Notes under the pieces: generated by a model
Databases searched by the model: none
Seen by the model: the letters and a program-made list of their open reading frames with translations, nothing else
What the model was told of the DNA's origin: nothing
Translations under genes and position numbers: made by a program
Part shown: positions 25,577 through 62,461 of the stretch, piece by piece
Layout: each line of letters opens with the position of its first letter
How positions within the stretch are numbered: position 1 is the stretch's first letter
Source of the DNA: an uncultured Candidatus Saccharibacteria bacterium
GTDB lineage: Bacteria; Patescibacteriota; Minisyncoccia; Phycocordibacterales; SBAW01
Reading direction: 5' to 3'
Length of the DNA: 64,000 nucleotides
NCBI GenBank assembly: GCA_964615415.1
Contig: CAZTNI010000001.1
Location: 240,746-304,745 of the forward strand

Positions 25577-25828
25577 ATGAATCTTTTTAACTTTGGAACC
25601 CTTGGGGTTGATGTGCCGATGCCAGAATGGTTCTACGCATTTATTAGCGTTATCGTGTTGTGGAGTTTGTTCTGGAAGGGTCTTGCTTTGTGGCACGCTG
25701 CTCGCCGTAAACAGCCGTGGTGGTTTGTAATCTTGCTTGTGGTAAACACTATGGGCATCCTCGAGATCATCTATCTCTTTGTAGTTGCAAAACTCAAACC
25801 GAAAGACCTCTTCGATACACATCACTAA
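25577..25828 (+). CDS. Small membrane protein (DUF5652-like)
   Basis: 83 aa with two TM helices and a WWFVILL motif. Confidence 0.45.
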   Translation: MNLFNFGTLGVDVPMPEWFYAFISVIVLWSLFWKGLALWHAARRKQPWWFVILLVVNTMGILEIIYLFVVAKLKPKDLFDTHH

Positions 25829-25837
25829 ATAAAGAAA

Positions 25838-25870
25838 CCCCGCGCAATATAGCGCGGGGTTTTGTTTAAC
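25838..25870. terminator. Bidirectional Rho-independent terminator
   Basis: AAACCCCGCGCAATATAGCGCGGGGTTTTGTTT. Confidence 0.7.
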
Positions 25871-26243
25871 AGTCTGCGCGGGCAATGGGGCCCGTCTGTG
25901 CGCGAATCTGGGTAAGCGTTTTTGCTCGCCGGGCGGGCTTCTGCTCGCTCACCTGGACCGTGCAGCAGTTGTAAAACGTGATCTGTTTTCCGTGGCAGAG
26001 ATGCTCTTCTGCAAGTGGGCGCATCACGTCCGATGCGCAGATACGAATGAGCTGCTTGCCGAGTTCGGATTTCGGATCTTCGGTCGCAAGTTCGCCTCGA
26101 CCGTGAGCAAGTCGGTGGAGATACGTGCAGGCAAGCGGCAAGTCAGCTTGCATGCCTGCAAGAATCAGAGCATCAAGTTCCTGCTCCGAAAGGCTGTCCA
26201 GGTTTTTGCCTGCAGTAGCAGCAATGAGGGACGGAAGAGACAT
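25866..26243 (-). CDS. Hypothetical Cys/His-rich protein, operonic with the upstream CooC/MinD-like ATPase
   Basis: The start (ATG at 26243) is preceded by GGAGG. The protein contains C-x-Y-x-H…C-H-G-K…C-C motifs. The start was trimmed from the longer track ORF. Confidence 0.45.
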   Translation of the reverse strand: MSLPSLIAATAGKNLDSLSEQELDALILAGMQADLPLACTYLHRLAHGRGELATEDPKSELGKQLIRICASDVMRPLAEEHLCHGKQITFYNCCTVQVSEQKPARRAKTLTQIRAQTGPIARADC

Positions 26244-26316
26244 TGATAACCTCCAAAGAACAACACTGGCGATCCTGCCAGCGTGCACCCCGCTATGCAT
26301 CACGGGGCGCACGCTG

Positions 26317-26994
26317 CTAGGATCTTGTAGCTCTAAAAATCTCTTCTATTGCTCGAGCGGTGTCTGTCTCCATCCCAGCCTCTTTATTGTGAACGATGCA
26401 GTGTGGAATAGCTGCCAATCCCAGCTCGTGTTTTATTTGTTCCGCGACACGACGGCTGTGTACCGTTGGTTCCTGAACAATCACTGCAAGGTCAACGCCT
26501 GCAAGAATGCCTGTGGCAACGGGGTCGGTGCCAGCTCGTTCGTCAATCACCACCGCCTCGTCGTCTGTAAGTTTTAACAGGGGGAGATATACCTTGAGCG
26601 GCGCTGCAAGAGAGTGGCTGCACGCCTCTTGGGACCGTACTCGGTCAGTGTGCGGACCAGCTGTTATAAGACGCAGACCTTCTGTAAGCTCACTAGAAAC
26701 ACTTGCGGTGTAGGGATCAGTGGGCGAGAGGGTAAATTCCACCCCGCGTTCTTTTGCGGTAGCGAGCGCATCAGCAAAACTTCCTGCAGGGTGTGACCCG
26801 ACGTAGGTTTTGATTCTGTCGGGCTCAGCCCCCAGAAATACGGTAGGGTCTGCTCCAAGGTTGTAGGAAAGATCCATATTATGGTCGGCGTCGATCGCGA
26901 GTACGGTGGTCCCTCGGGCACGTAAAAAGCGCACGAGCGCGGTCGCCATGGTCGACTTGCCTGATCCGCCTTTCCCCAGAAACGCGATTTTCAT
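26317..26994 (-). CDS. MinD/ParA-superfamily P-loop ATPase (CooC-like metallochaperone type)
   Basis: Deviant Walker A MKIAFLGKGGSGKST and the DADHNMDL motif. Confidence 0.65.
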   Translation of the reverse strand: MKIAFLGKGGSGKSTMATALVRFLRARGTTVLAIDADHNMDLSYNLGADPTVFLGAEPDRIKTYVGSHPAGSFADALATAKERGVEFTLSPTDPYTASVSSELTEGLRLITAGPHTDRVRSQEACSHSLAAPLKVYLPLLKLTDDEAVVIDERAGTDPVATGILAGVDLAVIVQEPTVHSRRVAEQIKHELGLAAIPHCIVHNKEAGMETDTARAIEEIFRATRS

Positions 26995-36956: not shown

Positions 36957-37619
36957 ATGCAGCAGCTACTCACTTTTAAACAACAGCGGGTGCTCTCCGA
37001 GCTTCGCTCACATATTGCAGAGCATAACGAGCCACCAACGCTCGAAGAGCTTCGCAAAACCCTTGGGTTCGAGTCTCTCCGTACGGTGACGCAATACTTA
37101 GACATTCTCGAGCGTAAGGGCTACATCGTCCGCCATAAAGGTTTGAAGAAAAATATCGAACTACGTAATGCAGACGGTGGGTGGGGTACAGTATCTATCC
37201 CTGTTATCGCCAATGTCGGCTGCGACGACCTCTCCGTCTATGCACAAGAACAAGCGGACGAATTTATTGAAGTCGACAAAAAAATTGTCGATGAAGCGGG
37301 GGAAATTGTTGCAGTGCGTGCCGTCGGCGAGTCTATGTTAGACGCAGGTATTAAAAGCGGGGACTATATTCTGGTGCAATTTACAAACAATGTGCAAACC
37401 GGCGACCGTGTTGCAGCAATAGTGGGCGACATGGTCACCGTAAAGCGGCTCGAGAAAAAAGACGGCGTCACTATCCTCTGGCCAGAGTCGAAAGATCCTA
37501 AATACAAACCGATTATTCTCCACGAAGATTTTAAAATCACCGGCAAAGTACTCTGTGTTATTTCTCAGCCAGATGTCGAGATTACGGAAGTGGTTCCTCT
37601 CAAAGAAGACGAATACTAA
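36957..37619 (+). CDS. lexA: LexA repressor (S24 peptidase family)
   Basis: N-terminal wHTH (…LEELRKTLGFESLRTVTQYLDILERKGYI…) and a C-terminal S24 domain with VGESMLDAGI (Ser) and VKRL (Lys). The start was trimmed to the ATG at 36957. Confidence 0.8.
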   Translation: MQQLLTFKQQRVLSELRSHIAEHNEPPTLEELRKTLGFESLRTVTQYLDILERKGYIVRHKGLKKNIELRNADGGWGTVSIPVIANVGCDDLSVYAQEQADEFIEVDKKIVDEAGEIVAVRAVGESMLDAGIKSGDYILVQFTNNVQTGDRVAAIVGDMVTVKRLEKKDGVTILWPESKDPKYKPIILHEDFKITGKVLCVISQPDVEITEVVPLKEDEY

Positions 37620-37749
37620 GAGGTTTCTAAAAATTGCGAGCTACTGTGTTGCAGCCTGTGCTACTCCTTCACAATAAGAAACTATTGCTCAGTCCGTTGC
37701 TCGGGTGCGCCTTGTATCTCATCAATTTTTAGAAACCTCTATAAAAACT

Positions 37750-37890
37750 ATGATCAAAAAGATTGGTAAAAAATACGTGGTACTTTCGGAAGATAGTACC
37801 CGGCGTCTTGGGACGTATACAACTCTTGCTGAAGCGAAGGAGCGTCTGCAACAAATAGAGATTTTTAAACGCCGCAAGGTAAAGAAATAA
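37750..37890 (+). CDS. Small basic hypothetical protein (46 aa)
   Basis: MIKKIGKKYVVLSEDSTRRLGTYTTLAEAKERLQQIEIFKRRKVKK. Weak call. Confidence 0.3.
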   Translation: MIKKIGKKYVVLSEDSTRRLGTYTTLAEAKERLQQIEIFKRRKVKK

Positions 37891-37894
37891 AGAA

Positions 37895-37918
37895 GCCCCG
37901 CGCATGGTGCGCGGGGCT
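37895..37918. terminator. Rho-independent terminator hairpin (U-tract on the minus-strand side)
   Basis: GCCCCGCGCATGGTGCGCGGGGC. On the minus strand it is followed by UUCUUUAUUUCUUU. Confidence 0.65.
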
Positions 37919-38220
37919 GGCTACTAGGGTGCTCCTGGGGTGGAGGCTCGAGCACTCTAGCAGCGTTGCGTGTCCTAGCCGGGGACGCCGGCAAGAATAG
38001 GGTTCTGTCCATGAAGCTGGACAGGGGCGTTCCATGATGCTGAGATCCGTGGCTCCGGTGTGCGGATGCCAGTCTGCTGGAGCTTCTGGATGTGTGCCGG
38101 TATCGTGTCCGGCTTGTTACGCTGCGGTTGCAACGGTATTCCTCCCTTAGTGAATCTGCATGTACTGGCCCCATAACAAACTACACGAGTCCACTGAAGT
38201 GTCAATGAGGCTCGATGAAG
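37919..38220 (-). ncRNA. Candidate structured RNA or structured 3' region of unknown family; GC-rich, hairpin-dense
   Basis: A 300-nt non-coding stretch between convergent genes. GC is clearly above the neighbouring sequence. It contains long imperfect helices (e.g. 37921-37968, a 15-bp stem with one mismatch) and ends on the minus strand with the terminator at 37895-37918. Confidence 0.35.
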
Positions 38221-38745
38221 CTAGCAGATCCGCTCCGCAAAGTAGCGCCGCACCATCTGCTCGTGGAGCGGGAAGGCGAAGTCGCGAGGTATGCTCTGGG
38301 GCGTTATGCAAAAGCGCTCCGTGACCTCGCGTGATGGGGTAAAGCCATGCTCGATCGGCACCACACCCCTGCGTACGATACCGAAGATGATCAGGTGTGT
38401 TTTTGCCGAGTTACTCGTTGGTGCAAAGCTGAGGATATTGTGCTCCGGATCAGGAATCTCAACTTGAATTTCCTCGGCTGTTTCGCGAGCAGCAGCTTCT
38501 TCCCACGACTCACCCTTTTTCATATAGCCGCCGGGCAGGCACACAAGGCCAATGGGCTCGATGCCGCGCCGGCTCATATACAAACCCTGCGGGGTTGGAA
38601 CAAGGAGCGCAACAGCGGCTGCAGGATTCTCGGGGTACGTTGTCCTACCGCACGCCGTGCACAGCATCTCTTCTTTTCCAAGAGATGATTGGTCGTACGG
38701 TGTGCCGCAGTAGTGGCAGTGCGAGTAGGGAACAGGTTTCTTCAC
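38221..38745 (-). CDS. NUDIX hydrolase with N-terminal zinc ribbon (NudC-like NADH pyrophosphatase architecture)
   Basis: C-x2-C…C-x2-C ribbon (CHYCGTPY…CTACG), then Nudix box GGYMKKGESWEEAAARETAEEIQVE. Confidence 0.7.
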   Translation of the reverse strand: MKKPVPYSHCHYCGTPYDQSSLGKEEMLCTACGRTTYPENPAAAVALLVPTPQGLYMSRRGIEPIGLVCLPGGYMKKGESWEEAAARETAEEIQVEIPDPEHNILSFAPTSNSAKTHLIIFGIVRRGVVPIEHGFTPSREVTERFCITPQSIPRDFAFPLHEQMVRRYFAERIC

Positions 38746-38872
38746 GTGGTCCTCCGTGTGTAAGAACAGTTGCGTAGTCTCTTTGTAAAGTACTACAGAA
38801 AAATCGATACGTCAAAACCAGTCGATGAGGTAATTTGAGATCGGATTAGTTTCTCTAACACAAGGGGTACCC

Positions 38873-39157
38873 ATGGAGGGTGTAGTTGGAATACTCGGTA
38901 TTGTTGTTTTTATCGCGTCGGCATGGGCTGCAGGATCCTATCTGACCTGGATTCCAATCCTCGTCATTTCTCTGTTGCTTGTGATGCTCTTGGTGTTTCT
39001 CTATAGAAAGGGGAATTTCCAAGGGTTGGAAGGGATCGCTACGACAATGCTTTTTGTCCTCGGGGTGATCTGGATGCTTGTTGCGTGGATCACGTACTAC
39101 ATGGCAACCGACCAGCGCTGGGTTCAAGACTTCTTCAATACATACATATTCCGTTAA
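38873..39157 (+). CDS. Small membrane protein (3 TM)
   Basis: 94-aa hydrophobic ORF. Confidence 0.4.
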   Translation: MEGVVGILGIVVFIASAWAAGSYLTWIPILVISLLLVMLLVFLYRKGNFQGLEGIATTMLFVLGVIWMLVAWITYYMATDQRWVQDFFNTYIFR

Positions 39158-39171
39158 AGGAGGACAGAGGT

Positions 39172-39570
39172 ATGAGGAAAGTACTCGTCGTGGATGACGA
39201 AGAGATGTGGCGAGATGCGCTGAAGCGAATTTTCGATGACTTGGGGTGCGAGGTAGACTTCGCTACCGACTTTCACGAAGGTAAGGCACGGATCGAGGTG
39301 ACCAAGTACGACCTTATCGTGCTCGACAACGCTCTGGACTACTTCTGGACCGACGCAGGGATTGAACTGCTCCACGTGGTGCGGAAGTATATTATTACGC
39401 CGAACGTGGAAACGCCGATCGTGCTCCATACCGGCGACGACCGCGACTCGACCAAAGAGCGGGTCAAACAGTTGGGCGGTCTCTATCGCTTCAAGGGCGA
39501 CTCGGATACCTTGTATGATTTCCTACAAGCTCTGCTTGCGGGTAGACCAATTCCCGCAACTTCTCAGTAA
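39172..39570 (+). CDS. Stand-alone response-regulator receiver (CheY-like) domain protein
   Basis: AAAGGAGG SD 7 nt upstream of the ATG. Receiver motifs: VLVVDDEE acidic pocket, the LIVLDN phospho-acceptor Asp, and a conserved Lys region. Confidence 0.65.
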   Translation: MRKVLVVDDEEMWRDALKRIFDDLGCEVDFATDFHEGKARIEVTKYDLIVLDNALDYFWTDAGIELLHVVRKYIITPNVETPIVLHTGDDRDSTKERVKQLGGLYRFKGDSDTLYDFLQALLAGRPIPATSQ

Positions 39571-39576
39571 GGGAGG

Positions 39577-40092
39577 ATGGTAATGCATAATCTTGCGAAT
39601 CGTGTTTCAAAATGGACGCGCAATGCACAACACGGTCCCTTCTATATGGAGAGTGGTTTCTATGCCGGTCGGGCGCCCTCGACCAGGGACGTCAATTCAC
39701 AAATTCTTGAGGCTATCCGCATAGGCCTCAGAGATGAAGTGAGTCAGGAAGCTGCGGTTAACTTTGTGCGGATGGTCAACCAGTTGGACGATCTTTCTGC
39801 ATCATCGTTTGTGGTGGCGCTCGAGCGCTTCTTTGCGAGCGATTGCAAAGAAGTGCTGAGCGCACAACGCAAGGAAGACCGTACGCGGATTGATGCGCAC
39901 GGCGATGATCGTGCACGGAAGCAGTCACTCGGTCTTGTGTTGCAGGTAGCGAGCGGGCCCACGATCTCCGAAGAGGATATCGCAGCTCGGTCGGAGGATA
40001 TCAAAGCAGATTTCATCCGCTGGCACGAGCATGACATCCCCAAGGAGGAAAAGTTTTCTCGCGCTCCTTCTCCTCGCTTACGTAAATGGTGA
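39577..40092 (+). CDS. Hypothetical protein, co-transcribed with the receiver gene
   Basis: 171-aa ORF starting 6 nt after the receiver stop. No recognisable motif. Confidence 0.45.
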   Translation: MVMHNLANRVSKWTRNAQHGPFYMESGFYAGRAPSTRDVNSQILEAIRIGLRDEVSQEAAVNFVRMVNQLDDLSASSFVVALERFFASDCKEVLSAQRKEDRTRIDAHGDDRARKQSLGLVLQVASGPTISEEDIAARSEDIKADFIRWHEHDIPKEEKFSRAPSPRLRKW

Positions 40093-40097
40093 CAAAT

Positions 40098-40130
40098 AAG
40101 CCGCTCTTAAGGGAGCGGCTTTTCTTTTTA
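40098..40130 (+). terminator. Rho-independent terminator, member of the repeated GCCGCTCC…GGAGCGGCTTTTCTTTT family
   Basis: AAGCCGCTCTTAAGGGAGCGGCTTTTCTTTTT. Confidence 0.75.
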
Positions 40131-40189
40131 TATATTTACGACTATAGTCTGCTACGGACTGAAGTAACCTAAACGGAAAGGGTAGATTA

Positions 40190-40615
40190 ATGAAAGTATT
40201 TAAGCCGAACTTCAAGCGGACTATCGGCGAGTTTCCAAATCTTGCTATAGCCGTCGTGCAGCATGCACACACGGGCGAGATCCTCATGGTCGCCTTCACA
40301 GACGAGGCCGGCTGGCTGCAAACGCTGCAGACCGGCAATGTCAGTCTCTTCTCGACTTCCCGCGGAAAGAGCTGGGTCAAGGGCGAGGAGAGCGGCAACT
40401 TTATGAAAGTGCTCTCCATTATGGTCGACTGCGATGGAGACGCAATCATCTACTCCGTCGAGCCGCAAGGACCCGGCGTCGCCTGTCACACCGGCGCGGT
40501 GTCGTGCTTCTACCGCGAGGCGTTTACTCCCGAGTATGACCACCCGCCGAAGGAAGGCGAGCATGAGCACCTGGAGATGATCGACGTCGAGGTGCACGAG
40601 AGGTTCCAAACATAA
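40190..40615 (+). CDS. Phosphoribosyl-AMP cyclohydrolase (HisI-like) domain protein, stand-alone
   Basis: LAIAVVQHAHTGEILMVAFTDEAGWLQTLQTGNVSLFSTSRGKSWVKGEESGNFMKVLSIMVDCDGDAIIYSVEPQGPGVACHTGAVSCFY aligns with the HisI PRA-CH core. Confidence 0.65.
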   Translation: MKVFKPNFKRTIGEFPNLAIAVVQHAHTGEILMVAFTDEAGWLQTLQTGNVSLFSTSRGKSWVKGEESGNFMKVLSIMVDCDGDAIIYSVEPQGPGVACHTGAVSCFYREAFTPEYDHPPKEGEHEHLEMIDVEVHERFQT

Positions 40616-40619
40616 CAAA

Positions 40620-40652
40620 AGCCGCTCCCTTGGGAGCGGCTTTTTCTTTTGG
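40620..40652 (+). terminator. Rho-independent terminator, same repeated family
   Basis: AAAAGCCGCTCCCTTGGGAGCGGCTTTTTCTTTT. Confidence 0.75.
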
Positions 40653-41018
40653 AAAGGTATTGTAACGTGTTTATTTTTGTTTTGTACTGTCTGCAAGGTT
40701 TCCCAGTGTTTTTTGAGAGAATCTTTTTTGATTTTGTGATTGATTTAATACTTTAAAAAACTACTGGTAGGGATTTCCTACATGGGCGATCCGAGAAAGA
40801 ATTAGGTAGCAGGAAGTAATTGCCGTGATATCGGGATGCCGAGATATGTCCATTGTCAGGCATTTATTGACACTCAGCTATAAAATAATTGTAAAAATTT
40901 TACCAGTATAAAAAACATATATAAAAACTTTTTTGAATCCTGAGTTTCCCACAGAAAAACCCTTTGTGTGGGCCGTTTTCGTGAAATATTGAAGCTATTG
41001 ATTAGCTAATTTTTATAT

Positions 41019-44000
41019 ATGAATTTCTTCCCACTTCTTATCGCGGGCCCAGGCAAAATAGCACTTCGATTGATGGGAATGATTCTTGTCGTCTCATTTT
41101 TTCTTTCTCCTCTTGCCCCTGTGTTTGCGCAAGAAGCAGATCCTGGAGCTGGTAGCGAAACTCCTGTTGCTGAAGAGTTGCTAACTGAAGAACCCTCTGA
41201 AGCAGATACTTCTACAGAAACTTCTGAAGAACCTGTGGTTGAAGAATCTGATCCAACGCCAACTGACCCAACAGAAGAAACTTCTTCTGAAGAAGTTTCA
41301 GAGTCGGAAATTTCCGAACTCACTGAAGAATCGGAAGAAGACTCACTACTAGAAGAAGAACTTGAACCAGAAGAAGACTCGCTGATGTCATCATCAGGAG
41401 GAGATCAGGGTACTGGAGAAGCTGTCGATTATGCAGCAGCTGGTGCACAAGCGAAGGTGGATGCATTCGGAGCTCTTGTGCAGAAAATTCAAATTGAAGT
41501 TCCTCCTGGTCGCAACGGTCTTCAGCCAGATTTATCTCTGCTTTACAACAGTCTGCAGTATGAAGATGGAAGTCTGGTGGGTTTTGGATGGGGGTTAACG
41601 ATACCGTATATTGAACGACTCAATCGCACTGGTGTTGATCGTTTGTATACCGATAATTATTTTTCGTCCTCTATGTATGGAGAATTAGCCTCCACGAGTG
41701 TCCCAGGTGAATATCGTCCAAGAACTGAAAACGGAGATTTTGTTAAATTTGTTTTTCAAAATAATATCTGGACTGCGTACGATAAACAGGGAACACAATA
41801 CAAATACGGTTCGACTACAGGATCTCAGGTGTACGACACTGCAAGCTCAACACAGGTTGGTGTATGGATGCTGCAGGAAGTTCGCGATACAAACAACAAC
41901 TACATAAAATATAACTATCAAAAAAGTGATAATCAGATTTATCCTTCGACGATTATCTATACAGGCAACGAATCTACCGACGGCATCTTCTCTGTAAGCT
42001 TTTCAAGACAAACACGACCAGATCCTATCTTTAGCTACAAGTATGGTTTTTTGGTAGAGACAAAAGATAGAATAAACCAAATTACAGTAGCGGTGAGTAG
42101 CTCGACTGTCCGCTCATACGCGCTTGCGTATACCTCCGGAAATAACGGGTATCGTTCTATGCTTTCTTCTGTAACTGAAACGTATGTTAATCCTGATGGT
42201 ACTAGTGTTGCGTATGCGCCGTGGCAGTTTGCTTATACTAACCAAACGCTTTCCTTTACTGATCAGGTTGAGAAAGAGGAAGGGGGATATAGGTCGCCAG
42301 CTTTCGTGCGTACCGACTTAAATGGCAACGGTCTTCTCGATATTGTCGCTTCATTTGTTGACTGGTCTCCTGCAGTGCAGAAAAATCTCCGTGTCATAAA
42401 CAATGGAAACTTTTCATTTACTAGCTCGGGTACGTTCTCTCCGGGATCAACAGACGTTCAAGTTACTTGGGCAAATGCTAATCCTTCTCCTAGTTGGCTT
42501 GTTTCCAGCGATCCTGGTGTGCGCCTCATGGACATAAATGGTGATGCGCTGCCAGATGTCGTGCAAAGTTATGTGTGCCAAGTAACATGCTCGACCTCAA
42601 TACAACAATATTTCTTGAATCTTGGTAACGGTCAGTGGCAGTCTACTGCAGCTACTACAACAGGATGGAATTATATTGTACGTGACCAACCAGGCACTTC
42701 TATTCCGCACGCCACAATCGCTATCATTGGAAACGTAAACGGCGACACTGTAGATGATATTTTTCCATACGAAGTAAATTATTTCGCAAGTACAGGTGGA
42801 GGTTCTCCACGTTGGACAAGCAACCAAGGTCAGCTGGTAGATCTTAACCATGACGGATTGGATGATGCATTTGCTCGTTTCGGTACAACTGCTTCTACAA
42901 GTATTAATAGAGGGGGGACAATAGGAATTACCACTGCATCAACCTCATTCAGCTACACAGCGACCTTTAATGGGCCGAGCGCCTATGAAGACAACGTAGA
43001 CAAAGGAATTCGCATCATGGATATAAATAATGATGGTCTTCCGGACCTCGTACGCTCATATCTTTTCTCGGGCGGTTACTCTTCTCATGGTGATGGCCAG
43101 TATGTGCCGCAAGATACAAGTTCTTCGACGCAAATTTATATAAACACAGGTGTTGGGTGGACCAGAATGCAAAACCCTCCAGCTATTCCCGTTATCTCAA
43201 ATCCTTCAAGTCAAAGTGGTTTTTGGACAGGTGCTCAACTTATTGAAGCGGTGTGGGACCAGGATGGTGATGGAGATGCAGAGATTGGTACCTATACCAA
43301 TAACATGAGTCGACAAGATTTGTTGAAGCAAATTACTTTGCCGACGGGAGGGTATGTGTATGCAACAAGTACTCCTACAACACAGCAATTCACCGGTTCT
43401 CAGGCTCACCACCCGAATTCTGTAGTACCTGTGTGGACTGTGTCGGAAATTACACACGATGATGGAAATGGTACACGAGAGACCAGTCGCTATTCTTACA
43501 AAGACGGAACACTCTGGTATGGTGGCATTAATAATCGAAAATATGCAGGCTTCGCAAGCACTACAGAGTCATACTATGGTCTTACTACCAAGTATTACCA
43601 TCAGGGAGATGAGACAGATTCTTCTCGTGGGGAATACCAAGATTCATTTGCAAAGATTGGCAAAATGTATCGTGTAGAGAGAACTAATAACGATGGAGTG
43701 GTGTATGCAAAGACTATCTACAAATGGGATCAGGCTACCACTACGTACGGAAATGTGTTCGCAAAATTAGTGCAGAAAGTAGACATGGAGTACAACGGCG
43801 ACGGTACTCACAAGGATCGTGCAGAGACATATACCTACGACAATGCCTCGGGCAATCTTACTGAAAAGAAGGAGTGGGGAGAGGTGACAGCATCAGACGA
43901 TGGAAGTTTCTCTGACACTGGGAGCGACATATTTGTCACAACGTACACCTATGCAACAGTAAACGCTTCTTCTACTGTTAGTCTTTTAGCGTCACAGTTA

Positions 44001-47000
44001 AAAACAGATCAAGGCGCTAATACTGTTAATGAGTCGAAGTTCTATTACGATTCGCAGTCATTTGGCTCCGCAACAGTAGGTAACCTTACAAAAGCAGAAA
44101 AGAGAATTAACCCAACTACTTTTGCAAGTACTACTAAGACATACAACAGCTACGGTTTACCGACCCAACAAAAGGATGAGAATAATAACGCTACTACGTA
44201 TGTATACGATGCGTTTAATCTCTACCCTGCAACCTCTACCAATGCCCTAAGTCAAAGTACAAAATATCAGTACAACTATGCGCTGGGCAAACTTGCTACA
44301 ACTACTGACTCAAATAATCAGACCTGGGTTAAAAAGTATGACGGCCATGGCCGTTTGCTTGAAGTGCAAGTGCCTGACCCTGCAACCTCAACTGCGCGTG
44401 TAATAAAGACTACCTACACGTATACCGATACTCCGCTTGCTGTGTCGGTAAAAAAGAGTTCGTACCTCGACGCTACTAACATAGTAGATTCTTACACGTA
44501 CTACGATGGTTTGGGGCATGCGATTCAAACCAAACAAGAAGCAGAAGGGGGAGAGTGGATTACTAAAGATGTAAGTTACAACGTGCGTGGTCGAGTATTC
44601 ACAGAAACACTTCCGTATCCAACAACAAATTACGTAAAGAGTTCTCCTACTGCTACTACAACCCTGTATACCAACTACATGTATGATCCGCTTAACCGAG
44701 TAACAGAATCACACACGGTCGTTGGCACTACAACAAATACGTATGATGACTGGAAGAAGACAGTTACGAACCCGCTTGGCATTGCGAAGTCATTCTATAA
44801 CGATGCGTACGATAATCTAGTTCGTGTAGATGAGACTAATAGCGGCTCTACTTATACAACGTTATATACGTGGGATGGAAATGGAGCGCTAACGGGTATA
44901 ACGGATGCTCTCAGTAACATACGCTCGTTTACGTACGACATGTTGGGTCGTCGCACTCAGGCAACAGACCTGCGTGCTTCTGGAGACGGCACATACGGTA
45001 CGTATACATATACCTACGATCCGGCGGGGAACATGAAGTCTAAGGTAACTCCGGTTGGGTCAACCATTAACTACACCTACGATGCGCTTAATCGCCTCAA
45101 GACAGAAGATTATACAGGTCAGGCAGGCACAGAAACCACCTATACCTATGACGCATGTACGCTCGGTGCAGGGAAGTTGTGCGTGGCAAGCAGTACTGCT
45201 TCAGTCGTGGGGTATGCATATACCCCAGCGGGTCTTGTTAAGACTGCAACCACAACTGTGCTAGGCACGCCAACCGTATTTACTACATCGAGTACATATG
45301 ATCGGCAGGGAAATCAGACAACTCTTACATACCCTGACGGTATGGAAGTGAAATACACCTATAATGCGGGTGGCTACATAGAAACCGTTCAGAAGAAAGA
45401 GGCGAGCGAAGGATCATTCTCAAACATAGTGTCTAACTTTAATTACTCACCCGTTGGTCAAGTAAGTCGAACCGAGTATGCAAATGGAGCGGTAACTACC
45501 AATACGTATGATCCTGCCACTCTCTACAGACTCAGCAATAAACAAACTATTCTCGGTGGTTCGCAGCAGGCACAAAACATCAGCTACAGCTACGACGCTT
45601 TGGGAAATATTTTGCAAGTTACCGATGCGTCAAATACGGCAGCTGCAAAAACGGTTAACTACTCGTACGACGACTTGTCTCGCCTTGTTACTGCATCTAC
45701 CACCAACGCAACAAGTAGTCCGAACTATAGATACACATATGCATACAATGCTCTGGGTAATATCACGAACGGTCCACTCGGGGTCTACACATACGCAGGT
45801 ACGAACTATGCAAACCCGCATGCAGCAACTGCTATAGCGACAACTTCAGGAGGTGGAGGAGGCGTTGCGACAACCACGACTCATACAGTATTTGCCGACG
45901 CCCTTACCCCAGGATGGAACGATTGGTCATACAATGCGGTACTCGACCTTAACGCAACTACCACGTACGCAGGAAGCAAAGCTATCAAGGTTACCTACTC
46001 AGTCGCTTGGGGTGGTTCATATTTGCAAAAGACTGCTGGAATCCAAGTTGGTACCTCTACTGCGCTTCAACTCGCCTTGCGTTCAACAAGTTCATCGCCT
46101 GACGTTACCATCGATATATATGGTACCAACGACGCGTATCTTGGATACGCTGACCCTACTGACTATATCGGCGGTCCTATTGCTGCTAACACGTGGTATC
46201 TACTTACTATCCCGTTTTCAGATTTTGGCGCCACTTCAACTATCAGTGGCATCGTAGTTGCACGCGACACTCCAGGTGTTCTCTATATCGATGAATTAAA
46301 GACTGTTGCCACATCTACAGGCGGAGGAGGTTCTGTGGCAACTACCACGCTTGCATACGATGCGAACGGCAACCTTACCTCAGACGGTACATTTACCTAT
46401 ACATGGGATTATCTCAACCGCATGACTCAGTCTGGTAACGGTACTGCCACATCAACCTATGCATACGATCAAGATGGTAATCGCGTAAAAATAGTTGAAG
46501 CAGGCGTCACCACAATCTTCCCAAACAAGTTCTACAACGCAATGCTTGGTGGTGCTGGCACTACTACAAAGCACATATATGCGGGAGACATGCTCCTTTC
46601 TACGATAGAGAATACAAATACTGCCGCTGCGACAACCACTACACACACGGTGTTTACCGACGCACTTGCTGCGGGCTGGAACGACTGGTCGTATAACGCT
46701 ACGCTCAACGTTAACGAAACTGCAGTTGTCTACAGCGGTGCTAAGTCAGCAAAGATCACATACAGCGCACCATGGGGCGGAGCATACATACAAAAAACGG
46801 GTGTAAATGTATCAACCTCTACGGCACTGCAGTTCGCAATCCGCCAACCTGTCACAACTGTTGATGTCGACCTCGATATCTATGGCGCAAACGATCAATA
46901 CCTTGGATACGTTAATATTGAGAATTTTGTGCCCGGAGGTGTGCTCCTTTCCAATACATGGCAGGTGGCAACGATACCGCTGTCAGCTATGGGCGCAACT

Positions 47001-48059
47001 TCTACGATCACGGGTATTGTGTTTGCGCGAGATGCAACAGGTACTCTGTATTTGGATGATATAAAATTCATCGCAACCTCTACCTCAGGAAGCCCTGCAA
47101 CATCAACGGTCCGCTACATCCATACAGATCATCTTGGTGGTACCAACGTTGTCACAAATGCGAGTGGTGCGGTGGTAGAAACAATTGACTACTATCCATA
47201 TGGAGAGACTCGTCTTGATGCGAAGGTTGGGACTTATGGAGGAGAAAAGAATAAATATGCGGGTACTGAGTATGACGCAGGTAGTGGTTTGAACTACATG
47301 CAGGCACGTTATCAAAGCCCAACTCGCGGAAACTTCATATCGCAGGATCCGGTGTTCTGGGAGATTGATATTACTAATGATGGTAAAGCAGTTCTCTCAA
47401 ACCCTCAACTTCAAAATTCATACAGTTATGCTGGCAATAATCCAATCGTAAGTAAAGATCCATCTGGAAGATTCCTAGACACCATTCTCGATTTAGGATT
47501 TATAGCTTACGATGTATACAAAGTTGGCCAGGCGGCCTTCACTGGCGGAAATGTTGGTGAGCAGTTAGGATACTTAGGGCTTGATGTAGCTGGGGCAGCC
47601 GTACCATTTGTCACAGGTGCGGGAGTAGCTGCTAGAGGAGTTAAAGCTGCTAATGCGGTAGCAGATGCAGCCGGCGGCGCCAACAAAGCAGGTAATGCTG
47701 CTCAGGCGGCTAATACCGCAGTAAAATCACTACCGGACTCGACGTTGGTCTGCAGAGGAGGAGGTTGCTCGGTGGAAAGTTTTATTAAGGGCAGTAATGA
47801 AGGAAGGGCGGGTCTTAATCCAAGTCCAACAACTCCTCTTACTGGGGTATCAGTAAATATGGGGGGTTCAAAAAATGCACTTATTAGCAATTTGCCTGGT
47901 GACTACCCTAAAGCAGGTTTTACATTCACCAATCAAATACAAAAACTTGGTGGCAATGCAGTATCTAGCCCTTCTCTTAATAATCCTTTCCACGGTCTAA
48001 TCAACGGCCTCAGTGCCCAGCAATTGAATAATATTTTTAAAGTAGAAAAGATAAAATAA
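41019..48059 (+). CDS. Giant secreted Tc-toxin/RHS-type polymorphic toxin: SpvB/TcB-like N-terminal domain, FG-GAP-like region, YD/RHS repeats, RHS repeat-associated core, unassigned C-terminal toxin domain
   Basis: 2346-aa ORF with a signal peptide and an acidic linker. The SpvB motif (…GLQPDLSLLYNSLQYEDGSLVGFGWGLTIPYIERLNRTGVDRLY…) is followed by many YD repeats (YTYDALNRL, YSYDALGNI, YAYDANGNL, YAYDQDGNR). The RHS core reads RYIHTDHLGGTNVVTNASGAVVETIDYYPYGE…ARYQSPTRGNFISQDPVFW. Confidence 0.85.
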   Translation: MNFFPLLIAGPGKIALRLMGMILVVSFFLSPLAPVFAQEADPGAGSETPVAEELLTEEPSEADTSTETSEEPVVEESDPTPTDPTEETSSEEVSESEISELTEESEEDSLLEEELEPEEDSLMSSSGGDQGTGEAVDYAAAGAQAKVDAFGALVQKIQIEVPPGRNGLQPDLSLLYNSLQYEDGSLVGFGWGLTIPYIERLNRTGVDRLYTDNYFSSSMYGELASTSVPGEYRPRTENGDFVKFVFQNNIWTAYDKQGTQYKYGSTTGSQVYDTASSTQVGVWMLQEVRDTNNNYIKYNYQKSDNQIYPSTIIYTGNESTDGIFSVSFSRQTRPDPIFSYKYGFLVETKDRINQITVAVSSSTVRSYALAYTSGNNGYRSMLSSVTETYVNPDGTSVAYAPWQFAYTNQTLSFTDQVEKEEGGYRSPAFVRTDLNGNGLLDIVASFVDWSPAVQKNLRVINNGNFSFTSSGTFSPGSTDVQVTWANANPSPSWLVSSDPGVRLMDINGDALPDVVQSYVCQVTCSTSIQQYFLNLGNGQWQSTAATTTGWNYIVRDQPGTSIPHATIAIIGNVNGDTVDDIFPYEVNYFASTGGGSPRWTSNQGQLVDLNHDGLDDAFARFGTTASTSINRGGTIGITTASTSFSYTATFNGPSAYEDNVDKGIRIMDINNDGLPDLVRSYLFSGGYSSHGDGQYVPQDTSSSTQIYINTGVGWTRMQNPPAIPVISNPSSQSGFWTGAQLIEAVWDQDGDGDAEIGTYTNNMSRQDLLKQITLPTGGYVYATSTPTTQQFTGSQAHHPNSVVPVWTVSEITHDDGNGTRETSRYSYKDGTLWYGGINNRKYAGFASTTESYYGLTTKYYHQGDETDSSRGEYQDSFAKIGKMYRVERTNNDGVVYAKTIYKWDQATTTYGNVFAKLVQKVDMEYNGDGTHKDRAETYTYDNASGNLTEKKEWGEVTASDDGSFSDTGSDIFVTTYTYATVNASSTVSLLASQLKTDQGANTVNESKFYYDSQSFGSATVGNLTKAEKRINPTTFASTTKTYNSYGLPTQQKDENNNATTYVYDAFNLYPATSTNALSQSTKYQYNYALGKLATTTDSNNQTWVKKYDGHGRLLEVQVPDPATSTARVIKTTYTYTDTPLAVSVKKSSYLDATNIVDSYTYYDGLGHAIQTKQEAEGGEWITKDVSYNVRGRVFTETLPYPTTNYVKSSPTATTTLYTNYMYDPLNRVTESHTVVGTTTNTYDDWKKTVTNPLGIAKSFYNDAYDNLVRVDETNSGSTYTTLYTWDGNGALTGITDALSNIRSFTYDMLGRRTQATDLRASGDGTYGTYTYTYDPAGNMKSKVTPVGSTINYTYDALNRLKTEDYTGQAGTETTYTYDACTLGAGKLCVASSTASVVGYAYTPAGLVKTATTTVLGTPTVFTTSSTYDRQGNQTTLTYPDGMEVKYTYNAGGYIETVQKKEASEGSFSNIVSNFNYSPVGQVSRTEYANGAVTTNTYDPATLYRLSNKQTILGGSQQAQNISYSYDALGNILQVTDASNTAAAKTVNYSYDDLSRLVTASTTNATSSPNYRYTYAYNALGNITNGPLGVYTYAGTNYANPHAATAIATTSGGGGGVATTTTHTVFADALTPGWNDWSYNAVLDLNATTTYAGSKAIKVTYSVAWGGSYLQKTAGIQVGTSTALQLALRSTSSSPDVTIDIYGTNDAYLGYADPTDYIGGPIAANTWYLLTIPFSDFGATSTISGIVVARDTPGVLYIDELKTVATSTGGGGSVATTTLAYDANGNLTSDGTFTYTWDYLNRMTQSGNGTATSTYAYDQDGNRVKIVEAGVTTIFPNKFYNAMLGGAGTTTKHIYAGDMLLSTIENTNTAAATTTTHTVFTDALAAGWNDWSYNATLNVNETAVVYSGAKSAKITYSAPWGGAYIQKTGVNVSTSTALQFAIRQPVTTVDVDLDIYGANDQYLGYVNIENFVPGGVLLSNTWQVATIPLSAMGATSTITGIVFARDATGTLYLDDIKFIATSTSGSPATSTVRYIHTDHLGGTNVVTNASGAVVETIDYYPYGETRLDAKVGTYGGEKNKYAGTEYDAGSGLNYMQARYQSPTRGNFISQDPVFWEIDITNDGKAVLSNPQLQNSYSYAGNNPIVSKDPSGRFLDTILDLGFIAYDVYKVGQAAFTGGNVGEQLGYLGLDVAGAAVPFVTGAGVAARGVKAANAVADAAGGANKAGNAAQAANTAVKSLPDSTLVCRGGGCSVESFIKGSNEGRAGLNPSPTTPLTGVSVNMGGSKNALISNLPGDYPKAGFTFTNQIQKLGGNAVSSPSLNNPFHGLINGLSAQQLNNIFKVEKIK

Positions 48060-48060
48060 T

Positions 48061-48513
48061 ATGAAAATAAAAAATGAATCAGATTTTGTAAATGCAGATA
48101 GTAAATTGAATCTGCGGAAAATCTCTTCTAATGAAATAGAGATAACCGACGTCTATGACATCTGGGATGGGCCTTTAAGTGGTAGCTGTCTCTGGGAAAA
48201 TAAAGATTATTATTTTTTCTCTTTTGATCAACTTGAGGATGATAAATCTGGTGATCGCTGGCCAAGAAAATACATTTTAGTTAGCTTAGATTCTGAGCAA
48301 AAGCAAACTGAAGAAGAATTAAAAAACCTTTATTCGGCTTTGAAAAAAGGTGAATTTACCGCCGAAGAATATAGCAACAAATTAGAAAGAATTCCAAAGT
48401 TACAAATAGAAAATAAGCAAATTGTTGGATGGTTTGATTCTGAAGATGTTGAAAAAAATGGAACTCCAACAAGATTCATGCAATCCTATTTTTCGTGGAA
48501 AGAAAAGAATTAA
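48061..48513 (+). CDS. Candidate cognate immunity protein of the RHS C-terminal toxin
   Basis: 150-aa ORF starting 2 nt after the RHS stop. It is markedly AT-rich relative to the RHS gene. That is the typical position and composition for an RhsI-type immunity gene. Confidence 0.55.
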   Translation: MKIKNESDFVNADSKLNLRKISSNEIEITDVYDIWDGPLSGSCLWENKDYYFFSFDQLEDDKSGDRWPRKYILVSLDSEQKQTEEELKNLYSALKKGEFTAEEYSNKLERIPKLQIENKQIVGWFDSEDVEKNGTPTRFMQSYFSWKEKN

Positions 48514-48608
48514 TTCTCTATTTTTGCTTCCATAAAACGCCCATACTGTTACAAACTTTATGGGGTCTGACCCCAATTCCAAATCTAAAGAATAATAAAA
48601 AATAAATT

Positions 48609-48797
48609 ATGCATATTAAAATTGATAAGGATGTAGGTACGGCTTATATTTACATAGCGGACAACCCAGAAGATCTAAAAGGCTCTGTCCGTTCCGAGCC
48701 AGTCAACTCAGATCTGATTATTGACTACACTCCAGACGGAAAATTATTTGGAATTGAAATTCTTAACCTGAAACTTCTCGATCTTGGTGAGAAATGA
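48609..48797 (+). CDS. DUF2283-like small protein (toxin-antitoxin associated family)
   Basis: MHIKIDKDVGTAYIYIADNPEDLKGSVRSEPVNSDLIIDYTPDGKLFGIEILNLKLL resembles DUF2283 (antitoxin partner of DUF4258). Confidence 0.5.
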   Translation: MHIKIDKDVGTAYIYIADNPEDLKGSVRSEPVNSDLIIDYTPDGKLFGIEILNLKLLDLGEK

Positions 48798-48818
48798 AAG
48801 CTAATTGAGAGGCTAAGT

Positions 48819-49144
48819 ATGATTAATAATTCACGGGATAAATATATTAATCTTGCAGTTCAGTATGGTGAGTATAAAAAGAATGGAGAAGCTGAACTTG
48901 CCAACAAGGTACATCAGCAACTCTCTGAAACATCCGACGCAATAAAAAAATTGATCCAGAGGGTTTTGATTTCATTGCTAGTCCTATGAATCACCCTGAA
49001 CCATTTGTAAGACTGTGGGCCGCAACTGATTCAAAAGATTATAAACCAAAGGAGGCGAGAGCAACTTTACGGGAACTCAAATACAACAAAGACGTAGCGG
49101 GGCTAGATGCTTGGGCGTTGTTAAGCATGTGGGGAGAGGAATAA
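48819..49144 (+). pseudogene. Frameshifted (or phase-variable) ~105-aa gene split at an A7 homopolymer
   Basis: Frame 1 (ATG 48819) reads MINNSRDKYINLAVQYGEYKKNGEAELANKVHQQLSETSDAIKK and terminates after the A7 run at 48943-48949. The -1/+1 frame continues as …IDPEGFDFIASPMNHPEPFVRLWAATDSKDYKPKEARATLRELKYNKDVAGLDAWALLSMWGEE* (stop at 49142-49144). Confidence 0.5.
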
Positions 49145-49253
49145 AAAACTTCTGAAATACAGGTTGTAGAGTTGGGGTCAGGGTCCCTTCAATGACAAAA
49201 TCTATATTGCCAGGCTCTTGCGACTGATGGTGCGGTAAAAGTGTAAAAGAAAT

Positions 49254-49288
49254 CGCCCCGACACTTCATGTGTCGGGGCTGTTTTTTA
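49254..49288 (-). terminator. Rho-independent terminator immediately downstream of the minus-strand gene 49286-49837
   Basis: CGCCCCGACAC-TTCA-TGTGTCGGGGC hairpin with flanking T/A tracts. Confidence 0.7.
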
Positions 49289-49837
49289 TCCTGCTTTTTC
49301 GACTGCGGCGCGGGCAGTTTCTTCCATCGTCTTGTAGATAGGGAAATCGTACCCCAGAAGGAGCGTAGTGTTACGCTCTACCATGTCGAGTCCGGAAAAT
49401 CCTTCCTCGCCGCCTATAACGACACGAGTCTCTTTTCGGTAGAACATGTGCGCTCGCCACTCGCCAAGTTCGCCGTAGGAGTCGCGGCCGTAGGGGCCGG
49501 CTTCCGGTGCACGGGGCTCGCGTTGCTCTTCTGCCCAAAAGAGGATGCAGCCTCGCGGGGTGTGCCACGCGGCCCGTGCAAGGTAGTGCCGCTCCCAGTC
49601 GAGCTGTCGATCAAAGATGTCCGCACCCTCTTGCAGGAAGTAGCCAGCAAGTGGGTGTGTGTTATTCCACCTTGCGGGGCAGGCTATGACGCAGTTGCCA
49701 TCCGTCGCTTGGCGCAGGTGCACGACCATTTCGTGTTGCCAGTCGCCGCCACCGCGGATAGGCCCGCCAAGGAAGAAGAAGGGAAGGTCTTCGAATTCCC
49801 GAAGGTCGGGACAATATTTCGGAACAATAATGCGCAT
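49286..49837 (-). CDS. Nucleoside 2-deoxyribosyltransferase-like (Rossmann/SLOG-type) protein, GC-rich
   Basis: N-terminal FFFLGGPIRGGGDW motif typical of the nucleoside 2-deoxyribosyltransferase/LOG-like fold. GC content is much higher than the flanking AT-rich genes. The family assignment is tentative. Confidence 0.45.
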   Translation of the reverse strand: MRIIVPKYCPDLREFEDLPFFFLGGPIRGGGDWQHEMVVHLRQATDGNCVIACPARWNNTHPLAGYFLQEGADIFDRQLDWERHYLARAAWHTPRGCILFWAEEQREPRAPEAGPYGRDSYGELGEWRAHMFYRKETRVVIGGEEGFSGLDMVERNTTLLLGYDFPIYKTMEETARAAVEKAG

Positions 49838-62093: not shown

Positions 62094-62345
62094 ATGGCAC
62101 GCAAACTGTTCGTAGGTGGTCTTCCTTACCGCACTACTGGAGATGAGTTGAAAGACGCATTTTCAAAGGCTGGTGAGGTAGCATCTGCGTCTATTGTGAC
62201 CGATCGCGAGACTGGTCGCTCACGTGGCTTCGGCTTCGTAGAGATGGCAAACGATGGTGATGCTGACGGCGCAATTGCTATGTGGAATGGCAAGGAGCTC
62301 GGCGGTCGCACTCTCACAGTCTCCGACGCTCGCCCAAAGGCGTAA
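62094..62345 (+). CDS. RNA-binding protein with single RRM domain
   Basis: RNP-2 LFVGGL and RNP-1 RGFGFVEM. Confidence 0.85.
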   Translation: MARKLFVGGLPYRTTGDELKDAFSKAGEVASASIVTDRETGRSRGFGFVEMANDGDADGAIAMWNGKELGGRTLTVSDARPKA

Positions 62346-62461
62346 TCAGCTCTGCTGACTACACCTAAGGTATAGATCAAAACGCCGCATGAGCTTCTGC
62401 TCTGCGGCGTTTTGCATTACCATAAACAAGCTTCGACAAAACTTGTTTTGTTAAAGCCTGT

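What the first reader, a model, noticed from the sequence alone, without database searches (positions are those of the whole stretch)
37891..38220. GC-rich, hairpin-dense 330-nt non-coding region between convergent genes (candidate ncRNA or structured 3' UTR)
No credible ORF covers it; the track ORFs there are low-complexity Arg/Ser/Pro reading frames. The region is clearly GC-richer than its neighbours. It contains long imperfect helices, for example GCTACTAGGGTGCTC…GAGCACTCTAGCAGC, a 15-bp stem with one mismatch at 37921-37968. On the minus strand it ends with a strong terminator plus a U-tract (37895-37918). It is therefore transcribed as the 3' extension of the NudC-like gene or as an independent minus-strand RNA. 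I could not match it to tmRNA (no tRNA-like T-arm), RNase P (only a short ACAGAACCC match) or SRP RNA.
Basis: seen in the sequence. Interest (0 to 1): 0.55.

Follow-up and report, generated by a model that had tools for sequence, protein, structure and literature searches.

The report
Orphan GC-rich trailer with strong terminator
The 330-base stretch is real non-coding, GC-rich DNA that ends in a strong transcription terminator behind a Nudix hydrolase gene, but it matches no known RNA family and has no relative in any searchable collection, so it is best read as an ordinary, strain-specific 3' trailer rather than a new conserved RNA.

Summary
The observation mostly holds. Window 37891-38220 lies between convergent genes: a 46-aa ORF (37750-37890, +) and a Zn-ribbon Nudix gene (38221-38745, -). 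No frame shows homologues or genome-typical codon usage. GC is 59%, peaking at 64%, in a 48% GC genome. On the minus strand it ends in an 11-bp intrinsic terminator with a U-tract (37918-37894), preceded by a 14-pair hairpin (37964-37920).

The claim of a hairpin-dense body is overstated. The terminal 81 nt fold at z = -8.1, while the 207-nt body folds at z = -2.4, against a genome background of -0.66 ± 1.56.

Rfam gives no hit at gathering scores, and the weak hits all map to the 3'-terminal hairpin/terminator part (37880-37999). No homologue turned up in genome, metagenome, viral, plasmid or phage collections, or in protein databases queried with the translated frames. The closest relatives (Patescibacteria near Adlerbacteria, LexA 91-95% identical) lose synteny at 37894 and lack both the region and the Nudix gene. 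Every other copy recovered is 100% identical, so covariation cannot be tested.

Best reading: the strain-specific 3' trailer of the Nudix transcript with a terminator module. An independent sRNA is possible but unsupported. Interest is low.

The parts
37894..37918 (-). Intrinsic terminator hairpin: 11-bp stem (9 G-C) and 3-nt loop, followed on the minus strand by UCUUUAUUUC (37893-37884).
   Evidence: Terminator scan. Mean pair probability 0.96. All weak Rfam hits include it. A near-identical terminator sits at 25827-25859.
37920..37964 (-). Long imperfect hairpin of 8 + 6 pairs with a 15-nt C-rich loop (GAGCCUCCACCCCAG), directly upstream of the terminator.
   Evidence: Pair probability 0.99-1.00. 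Together with the terminator it folds at z = -8.1. As a palindrome it forms on either strand.
37966..38172 (-). GC-rich body with several short, well-determined hairpins (38120-38135, 38096-38113, 38050-38071, 38006-38023, 37978-37992). A possible closing helix pairs GGGGC (38172-38168) with GCCCC (38028-38024).
   Evidence: Partition-function fold. The body is only modestly structured: z = -2.4 on the minus strand and -1.1 on the plus strand.
38178..38205 (-). Promoter-like site: TTGACA, 16 nt, TAGTTT, lying 15 nt after the Nudix stop codon. If used, it would give an RNA of about 280 nt starting near 38172.
   Evidence: Pattern search found 2 such sites in the window against 1.8 expected by chance, so there is no statistical support. 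The stricter promoter scan did not report it.
37975..38133 (-). Possible 52-aa ORF from a UUG start, with GGAGG 7 nt upstream, in the same frame as the Nudix stop codon. Probably not a gene.
   Evidence: Codon score about +0.04 (scored from 38139, two codons upstream of the UUG), intermediate between real genes (0.22 ± 0.08) and off-frames (-0.32 ± 0.17) and similar to the Nudix gene at 0.01. No homologue. The start codon lies inside a hairpin with pair probability 0.96.
38221..38745 (-). Upstream gene whose transcript would run into the region: a Zn-ribbon plus Nudix hydrolase of 174 aa starting at GTG.
   Evidence: Pfam NUDIX at 4.7e-10. Sub-threshold match to NAD+ diphosphatase NF001299. 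The N-terminal CxxC is conserved in P0002. Only one distant homologue exists among 5.8 billion proteins.
37750..37890 (+). Convergent 46-aa ORF whose stop codon lies 3 nt before the terminator hairpin.
   Evidence: Conserved in L006 (83% DNA identity), L003 and L005. The exact protein is on record.

Best explanation
The region is the non-coding 3' trailer of the minus-strand Nudix hydrolase transcript.

How it most likely works:
- Transcription that starts upstream of the Nudix gene runs about 300 nt past its stop codon.
- It is released at the intrinsic terminator (37918-37894 plus U-tract).
- The 14-pair hairpin just upstream and the terminator hairpin together form a stable 3'-end module. 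That module would stop read-through into the convergent 46-aa gene and protect the mRNA's 3' end from exonucleases.
- The GC-rich body carries short hairpins, but there is no evidence that it is a conserved functional RNA.
- The region and the Nudix gene are missing from the closest relatives' loci, and the Nudix gene has atypical codon usage. They probably arrived together as strain-specific DNA.

Shown: the non-coding status, the terminator and its orientation, the lack of any family match, and the absence from relatives.
Inferred: the transcription itself and the stabilising and insulating role.
For: - The terminator with a U-tract exists only on the minus strand. No other terminator-like site lies between the Nudix stop codon and this terminator.
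- The terminal 81 nt fold at z = -8.1, while the body folds at only z = -2.4. The genome background for 300-nt windows is -0.66 ± 1.56.
- There is no Rfam family at gathering score, and sub-threshold hits all map to the 3'-terminal hairpin/terminator part.
- No tRNA or tmRNA is present.
- No protein homologues or domains turn up in any frame.
- No DNA homologue was found in any collection.
- Synteny with the closest relatives ends at 37894. They carry neither the region nor the Nudix gene.
- The Nudix gene has atypical codon usage (0.01 against 0.22 for core genes) and only one distant homologue.
- The promoter-like site is no more frequent than chance.
Against: - A 59-64% GC non-coding gap in a 48% GC, 86% coding genome is unusual. 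It falls in the top 0.5% of windows, and GC-rich gaps are a classic sign of structured RNA.
- A perfect TTGACA sits just after the Nudix stop codon, so an independent transcript is possible.
- The minus strand folds better than the plus strand.
- The absence of homologues may reflect limited search reach. DNA scans needed exact patterns, and the Logan and ENA assemblies could be reached only through protein identity.
- No expression data could be consulted.
Confidence: 0.5

Rival explanations
1. An independent, or 3'UTR-derived, trans-acting small RNA of about 280 nt. It would be transcribed from the TTGACA-N16-TAGTTT site, or cut from the Nudix mRNA, and would end at the terminator. Its C-rich loops, such as CCUCCACCCC in the long hairpin, would pair with G-rich target sites on mRNAs.
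For: - Promoter-like site directly after the Nudix stop codon.
- Strong terminator.
- GC enrichment.
- Strand-asymmetric folding, z = -4.1 against -2.5.
- Well-determined hairpins with C-rich loops.
Against: - The promoter pattern is at chance frequency, and its -10 box matches only 3 of 6 consensus positions.
- The body z-score of -2.4 is unremarkable against the genome background.
- No homologue exists and the region is absent from close relatives.
- No enriched complementary target was found in the window.
- Most genes here lack Shine-Dalgarno sequences, which weakens an anti-SD mode of action.
Confidence: 0.25
2. A non-functional relic: decayed coding sequence or spacer DNA carried in with the horizontally acquired Nudix gene. 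Its GC content and incidental hairpins would reflect the donor's composition rather than selection.
For: - The region's GC matches the adjacent Nudix gene (53-59%) rather than the host average.
- It lies in a variable island.
- It is a complete orphan.
- Frame -0 has Nudix-like codon scores.
Against: - No protein or domain similarity appears in any frame, even at permissive thresholds.
- It is not a remnant of the genes found at this position in relatives.
- The terminator and long hairpin are intact and placed where a terminator is needed.
Confidence: 0.15
3. A small protein-coding gene. Either the 52-aa ORF starting at UUG 38133 (GGAGG 7 nt upstream, frame -0), or the 150-aa ORF that automated gene callers annotate (37722-38174, -).
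For: - Good SD-to-start spacing for the 52-aa ORF.
- Its codon score of about +0.04 is above the 95th percentile of off-frames.
- The 150-aa ORF was called as a gene in public assemblies.
Against: - The 150-aa ORF scores -0.32 per codon. It also runs through the terminator and antisense across the conserved small ORF, and its only database hits are to that antisense part.
- Frame -0 has no homologue.
- The 52-aa product is rich in Pro and Gln and poor in hydrophobic residues.
- Its UUG lies in a stable stem.
Confidence: 0.07

Closest known systems
Rho-independent (intrinsic) terminator with an upstream stabilising hairpin, at the 3' end of a bacterial mRNA between convergent genes
   Same: It has a G+C-rich 11-bp stem, a short loop and a U-rich tail on the transcribed strand. 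A second stable hairpin lies just upstream. It sits in the gap between convergent genes.
   Different: The trailer before the terminator, about 300 nt, is long for a compact Patescibacteria genome and is unusually GC-rich.
3'UTR-derived and terminator-sharing bacterial sRNAs (the class described in enterobacteria, such as CpxQ and SroC; recalled from general knowledge, not tested here)
   Same: It lies directly downstream of a coding gene, shares that gene's terminator, and has a possible internal promoter.
   Different: No evidence exists of a separate transcript, a processing site, a conserved seed or targets. At about 280 nt it is much longer than typical members. It is not conserved in relatives.
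Bacterial RNase P RNA, type A (RF00010)
   Same: It contains the short strings ACAGAACCC and GGGAGGAA, which recall CR-V and CR-I. The two segments can pair with each other in the minimum-free-energy fold.
   Different: No RNase P covariance-model hit appears even at E ≤ 10 on 341 nt. The P4 sequences differ from the universally conserved ones. No specificity-domain motifs are present. The core of about 200 nt is too short. The region is also absent from close relatives, which an essential RNA would not be.

Membership tests
Intrinsic (Rho-independent) terminator | G+C-rich stem-loop followed at once by a U-tract on the transcribed strand | tested here: met
   11-bp stem with 9 G-C pairs, 3-nt loop and tail UCUUUAUUUC on the minus strand. 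Pair probability 0.96.
Any Rfam 15 family (4227 covariance models) | Covariance-model score at or above the family's gathering threshold | tested here: not met
   The only gathering-level hits in the window are 6 tRNAs elsewhere. At E ≤ 10 the hits score 13-22 bits against cut-offs of 37-93, and all map to the 3'-terminal hairpin/terminator part, 37880-37999.
RNase P RNA (bacterial) | P4 helix built from conserved CR-I and CR-V sequences, a specificity domain, and a covariance-model match | tested here: not met
   No RF00010 or RF00011 hit at E ≤ 10. Only 9-nt and 8-nt string resemblances are present.
tmRNA | tRNA-like acceptor and T-arm domain plus a tag-peptide reading frame | tested here: not met
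   ARAGORN finds no tmRNA in the window. There is no Rfam tmRNA hit.
SRP RNA / 6S RNA | Covariance-model match, meaning the domain IV motif for SRP RNA or a rod with a central bubble for 6S RNA | tested here: not met
   No hits. The predicted fold is multi-hairpin, not rod-like.
Conserved structured ncRNA (any new family) | Homologues in other genomes with covarying base pairs | tested here: not met
   No homologue in the genome, metagenome, viral, phage or plasmid collections, or in 28 loci from relatives. All other copies are 100% identical. Search reach was limited to exact patterns and protein-indexed assemblies.
Independent sRNA gene | Its own transcription start or a processing site that yields a discrete stable RNA | not testable with these tools
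   Only a promoter-like string at chance frequency is available. This needs RNA-seq or 5' RACE.
Repeated extragenic elements (REP/BIME, MITE) or repeat arrays (CRISPR, TIGR, ToxI-like) | Several copies in the genome, or tandem or interspaced repeats | tested here: not met
   No second copy in 64 kb apart from the terminator-like hairpin at 25827-25859. No tandem repeats.
Protein-coding gene | Homologues, a domain match or genome-typical codon usage in an open frame | tested here: not met
   Searches found no homologues or domains. Codon scores are -0.32 for the 150-aa frame and about +0.04 for the 52-aa ORF, against 0.22 ± 0.08 for real genes.
NudC (NAD+ diphosphatase), for the neighbouring gene | NCBIfam NF001299 score at or above 158 bits, with a Zn ribbon plus a Nudix domain | tested here: not met
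   36.4 bits, covering model positions 103-192 of 263. The Zn-ribbon CxxC…CxxC and the Nudix domain are both present. The resemblance is in architecture only.

The most novel reading that the evidence does not exclude
The region encodes a lineage-restricted structured RNA of about 280 nt that works together with the adjacent NudC-like Zn-ribbon Nudix hydrolase. It could be a capped or otherwise modified RNA that the enzyme processes. The pair would move as a two-part mobile module in a Patescibacteria genome.
Probability: 0.04. Interest if true: 0.6.

Novelty: new member of a known kind. Interest (0 to 1): 0.15.

Why it matters
If the ordinary reading is right, the practical value is for annotation:
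- The 150-aa gene called here in public assemblies is spurious.
- The Nudix gene start is miscalled. The called start drops half of the Zn ribbon.
- The gap is a terminator-bearing trailer.

GC-rich non-coding gaps in small Patescibacteria genomes are a reasonable hunting ground for new RNAs. This one, however, fails the conservation test that would make it a priority. It would matter only if expression data showed a discrete stable RNA linked to the Nudix enzyme.

Tried and rejected
- **Rfam**: gathering mode on the whole window, and E-value mode on 801 nt and on 341 nt. Only weak matches confined to the 3'-terminal hairpin/terminator part appeared.
- **ARAGORN**: no tmRNA.
- **RNase P by eye**: the ACAGAACCC and GGGAGGAA strings do not build a P4 helix of conserved sequence. 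Rejected.
- **Homologues through the Nudix gene**: one scan of genome contigs found none. The protein search found only the gene itself and one 37% relative in a different context.
- **Homologues through the spurious 150-aa ORF**: the exhaustive HMMER hits cover only the part antisense to the small ORF. Their loci (L003-L005) carry nothing similar next to it.
- **Homologues through LexA synteny**: relatives of 76-95% identity (L006-L008, L014-L023, L026-L029) have neither the region nor the Nudix gene.
- **DNA pattern scans**: a 19-mer found nothing in genome contigs. A 16-mer in viral contigs gave only chance matches.
- **Back-translated frames as degenerate multi-pattern scans**: nothing in metagenome contigs (two scans) or viral contigs.
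- **blastn** against phages and plasmids: nothing.
- **Relic of the genes present at this position in relatives** (MFS, LapA): no similarity.
- **Integron attC**: the R''/R' consensus does not fit, judged by eye.
- **REP, MITE or repeat arrays**: no repeats.
- **Strain variants for covariation**: every other contig recovered is 100% identical.
- **Target search for the C-rich loop**: not enriched.
- **Literature**: nothing on Patescibacteria RNase P RNA or structured ncRNA.
- **Not attempted**: a covariance model from the single sequence. Only about 240 kb of relatives' DNA was held, and the closest relatives lack the locus.

Full report
**Location and context.** The window comes from a cellular genome of the Patescibacteria, near Candidatus Adlerbacteria in the Paceibacterota. 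The best hits to its LexA protein carry those names, and the window encodes housekeeping enzymes such as CTP synthase and glutamate dehydrogenase.

The finding (37891-38220) lies between two convergent genes:
- On the left is a 46-aa ORF on the plus strand (37750-37890). It is conserved in other assemblies.
- On the right is a 174-aa Nudix hydrolase on the minus strand (38221-38745; Pfam NUDIX 4.7e-10).

The N-terminal CxxC…CxxC zinc ribbon of the Nudix protein is conserved in its only homologue, P0002 (37% identity). The GTG at 38745 is therefore the likely start, not the shorter 148-aa call found in public assemblies. The protein resembles NudC in architecture only: 36 bits against NF001299, whose cut-off is 158.

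**Checking the observation: coding status.** The region is non-coding as far as can be tested.
- Public gene callers annotate a 150-aa ORF here (37722-38174, minus). Its part inside the region scores -0.32 per codon on a codon model trained on 25 long genes of the window. Real genes score 0.22 ± 0.08 and off-frames -0.32 ± 0.17.
- That ORF runs through the terminator and antisense across the small ORF.
- An exhaustive HMMER search of 1.84 billion proteins found only the ORF itself, plus two proteins that align to the antisense-of-small-ORF part.
- Six-frame Pfam found nothing.
- Frame -0 continues in frame from the Nudix stop codon. It holds a 52-aa ORF starting at UUG 38133, with GGAGG 7 nt upstream, and has no homologue. 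Its codon score of about +0.04 is ambiguous and close to that of the Nudix gene (0.01).
- P0002 ends at the same relative position as the Nudix protein, so a lost C-terminal extension is unlikely.

**Checking the observation: GC content.** GC is 59% over the region. The sub-window 37901-38100 is 64%, in the top 0.5% of 200-nt windows of a 48% GC window. This is the GC-richest of the 12 non-coding gaps of 250 nt or more. The adjacent Nudix gene is itself 53-59% GC.

**Checking the observation: structure.**
- The terminator is real. It has an 11-bp stem (9 G-C) at 37918-37894, a 3-nt loop and then UCUUUAUUUC, on the minus strand only.
It has 14 pairs, with one G-U and one mismatch on either strand.
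- The whole region folds at z = -4.1 on the minus strand and -2.5 on the plus strand.
- I folded 319 windows of 300 nt along the minus strand, each with 25 dinucleotide shuffles. The background is z = -0.66 ± 1.56. The windows covering the region (z = -4.4 and -5.2) rank about 9th to 13th, among tRNA-containing windows and several other stretches.
- Splitting the region is more informative. The last 81 nt (long hairpin plus terminator) give z = -8.1. The 207-nt body gives z = -2.4 on the minus strand and -1.1 on the plus strand, which is within the ordinary range for this genome.
- 'Hairpin-dense' therefore describes the 3' end well. The body has a few short, well-determined hairpins but no exceptional structure.

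**Known families.**
- Rfam 15 at gathering thresholds finds only six tRNAs elsewhere in the window.
- With permissive thresholds on 801 nt and on 341 nt, every hit scores 13-22 bits, far below its family cut-off. All of them map to the 3'-terminal hairpin/terminator part, 37880-37999.
- ARAGORN finds no tmRNA.
- The strings ACAGAACCC and GGGAGGAA recall RNase P CR-V and CR-I, and they can pair with each other in the minimum-free-energy fold. However, there is no covariance-model hit, the P4 sequences are not the conserved ones, there is no specificity domain, and the core is too short.
- There are no tandem or interspaced repeats. There is no second copy in the window apart from a near-identical terminator at 25827-25859 behind another gene.

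**Search for relatives.**
- The Nudix gene has no relative among 185,579 species genomes. It has a single distant homologue among 5.8 billion proteins, in a different context.
- LexA, 270 nt to the left, has hundreds of close relatives. In the closest ones (95% and 91% identical; L006, L007, L008), nucleotide similarity to the window stops at 37894, just after the small ORF's stop codon. Different genes follow.
- Comparison with L007 shows that about 11.7 kb of the window (37.6-49.3 kb) sits where L007 has about 0.5 kb. This segment holds the region, the Nudix gene, a response regulator, a DUF7718 protein, a HisI-like protein and a 2346-aa SpvB/RHS protein.
- Loci of relatives with 76-78% identical LexA also lack both the region and the Nudix gene.
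- Direct DNA pattern scans gave nothing beyond chance matches. Scans with two translated frames of the region, used as degenerate multi-pattern probes, also gave nothing. Neither did blastn against phages and plasmids.
- All other contigs that carry parts of the locus are 100% identical to the window. No sequence variation is available, and covariation cannot be assessed.

**Interpretation.** The simplest account has four parts:
1. The Nudix transcript continues about 300 nt past its stop codon.
2. It ends at the only properly oriented terminator.
3. The tandem hairpins form a 3'-end module. It stops read-through into the convergent small gene and protects the mRNA's 3' end.
4. The body is strain-specific DNA, probably acquired together with the Nudix gene. 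The Nudix gene has atypical codon usage, and both it and the region are absent from relatives.

I give this reading a confidence of 0.5.

An independent or 3'UTR-derived sRNA remains possible (0.25). A TTGACA-N16-TAGTTT site follows the Nudix stop codon, but such sites occur at chance frequency in the window, with 2 found against 1.8 expected. The C-rich loops have no enriched targets. Most genes here look leaderless and lack Shine-Dalgarno sequences.

A non-functional relic (0.15) and a small protein gene (0.07) are the remaining alternatives.

The 'structured 3' UTR' reading survives.

**Limits.**
- Collection scans needed exact pattern matches.
- The largest assemblies (Logan, ENA) could be reached only through exact protein identity.
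- No expression data were available.
- A nucleotide-level search of all public data, together with RNA-seq from the source samples, would settle the matter.

Noticed in passing
window 37619-37744: A 122-nt element with perfect 18-nt terminal inverted repeats (AGAGGTTTCTAAAAATTG / CAATTTTTAGAAACCTCT) folds into one long hairpin (MFE -43.6, z = -6.6). It is an insertion relative to the closest relative, L006, where the small ORF's ATG follows the LexA stop codon by 4 nt. It could be MITE-like or a regulatory hairpin between LexA and the small ORF. There is a single copy in the window and none in viral contigs.
   Followed up: partly
window 37620-49290: A variable island of about 11.7 kb lies between LexA and a conserved 149-aa gene (49292-49729, -). 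It holds the Nudix gene, a 94-aa membrane protein, a stand-alone response regulator, a DUF7718 protein, a HisI-like PRA-CH and a 2346-aa SpvB/RHS-type protein. In relative L007 about 0.5 kb occupies this position.
   Followed up: partly
window, many gene starts (e.g. 22450, 23805, 31725, 35046, 36957): TATACT- or TAATAT-like boxes lie 6-9 nt upstream of the ATG and no Shine-Dalgarno sequence is present. This suggests that many mRNAs in this genome are leaderless.
   Followed up: no
window 38221-38745 (-): Public gene calls start the Nudix gene at an internal ATG (148 aa) and so drop the first CxxC of its zinc ribbon. Alignment with P0002 supports the GTG start at 38745, giving 174 aa.
   Followed up: yes
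window 25827-25859 (-): This terminator is almost identical in sequence to the one at 37894-37918 (CCCCGCGC…GCGCGGGG followed by UUCUUUAUUU). It sits behind an unrelated minus-strand ORF of 148 aa as listed from a GTG start (25866-26312), probably about 125 aa from an internal ATG.
   Followed up: partly
window 39801-40100, 40601-40900, 62201-62900, 26201-26500 (minus strand): These 300-nt windows have fold z-scores of -5.3 to -6.4, as strong as or stronger than the finding. They were not examined further.
   Followed up: no
window 37943-37963 and 38207-38227: An imperfect 21-nt direct repeat (17 of 21 identical, GAGGCTCGA…CTAGCAG) occurs once inside the long hairpin and once across the Nudix stop codon, with a start-to-start spacing of 264 nt. 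It may be chance.
   Followed up: no
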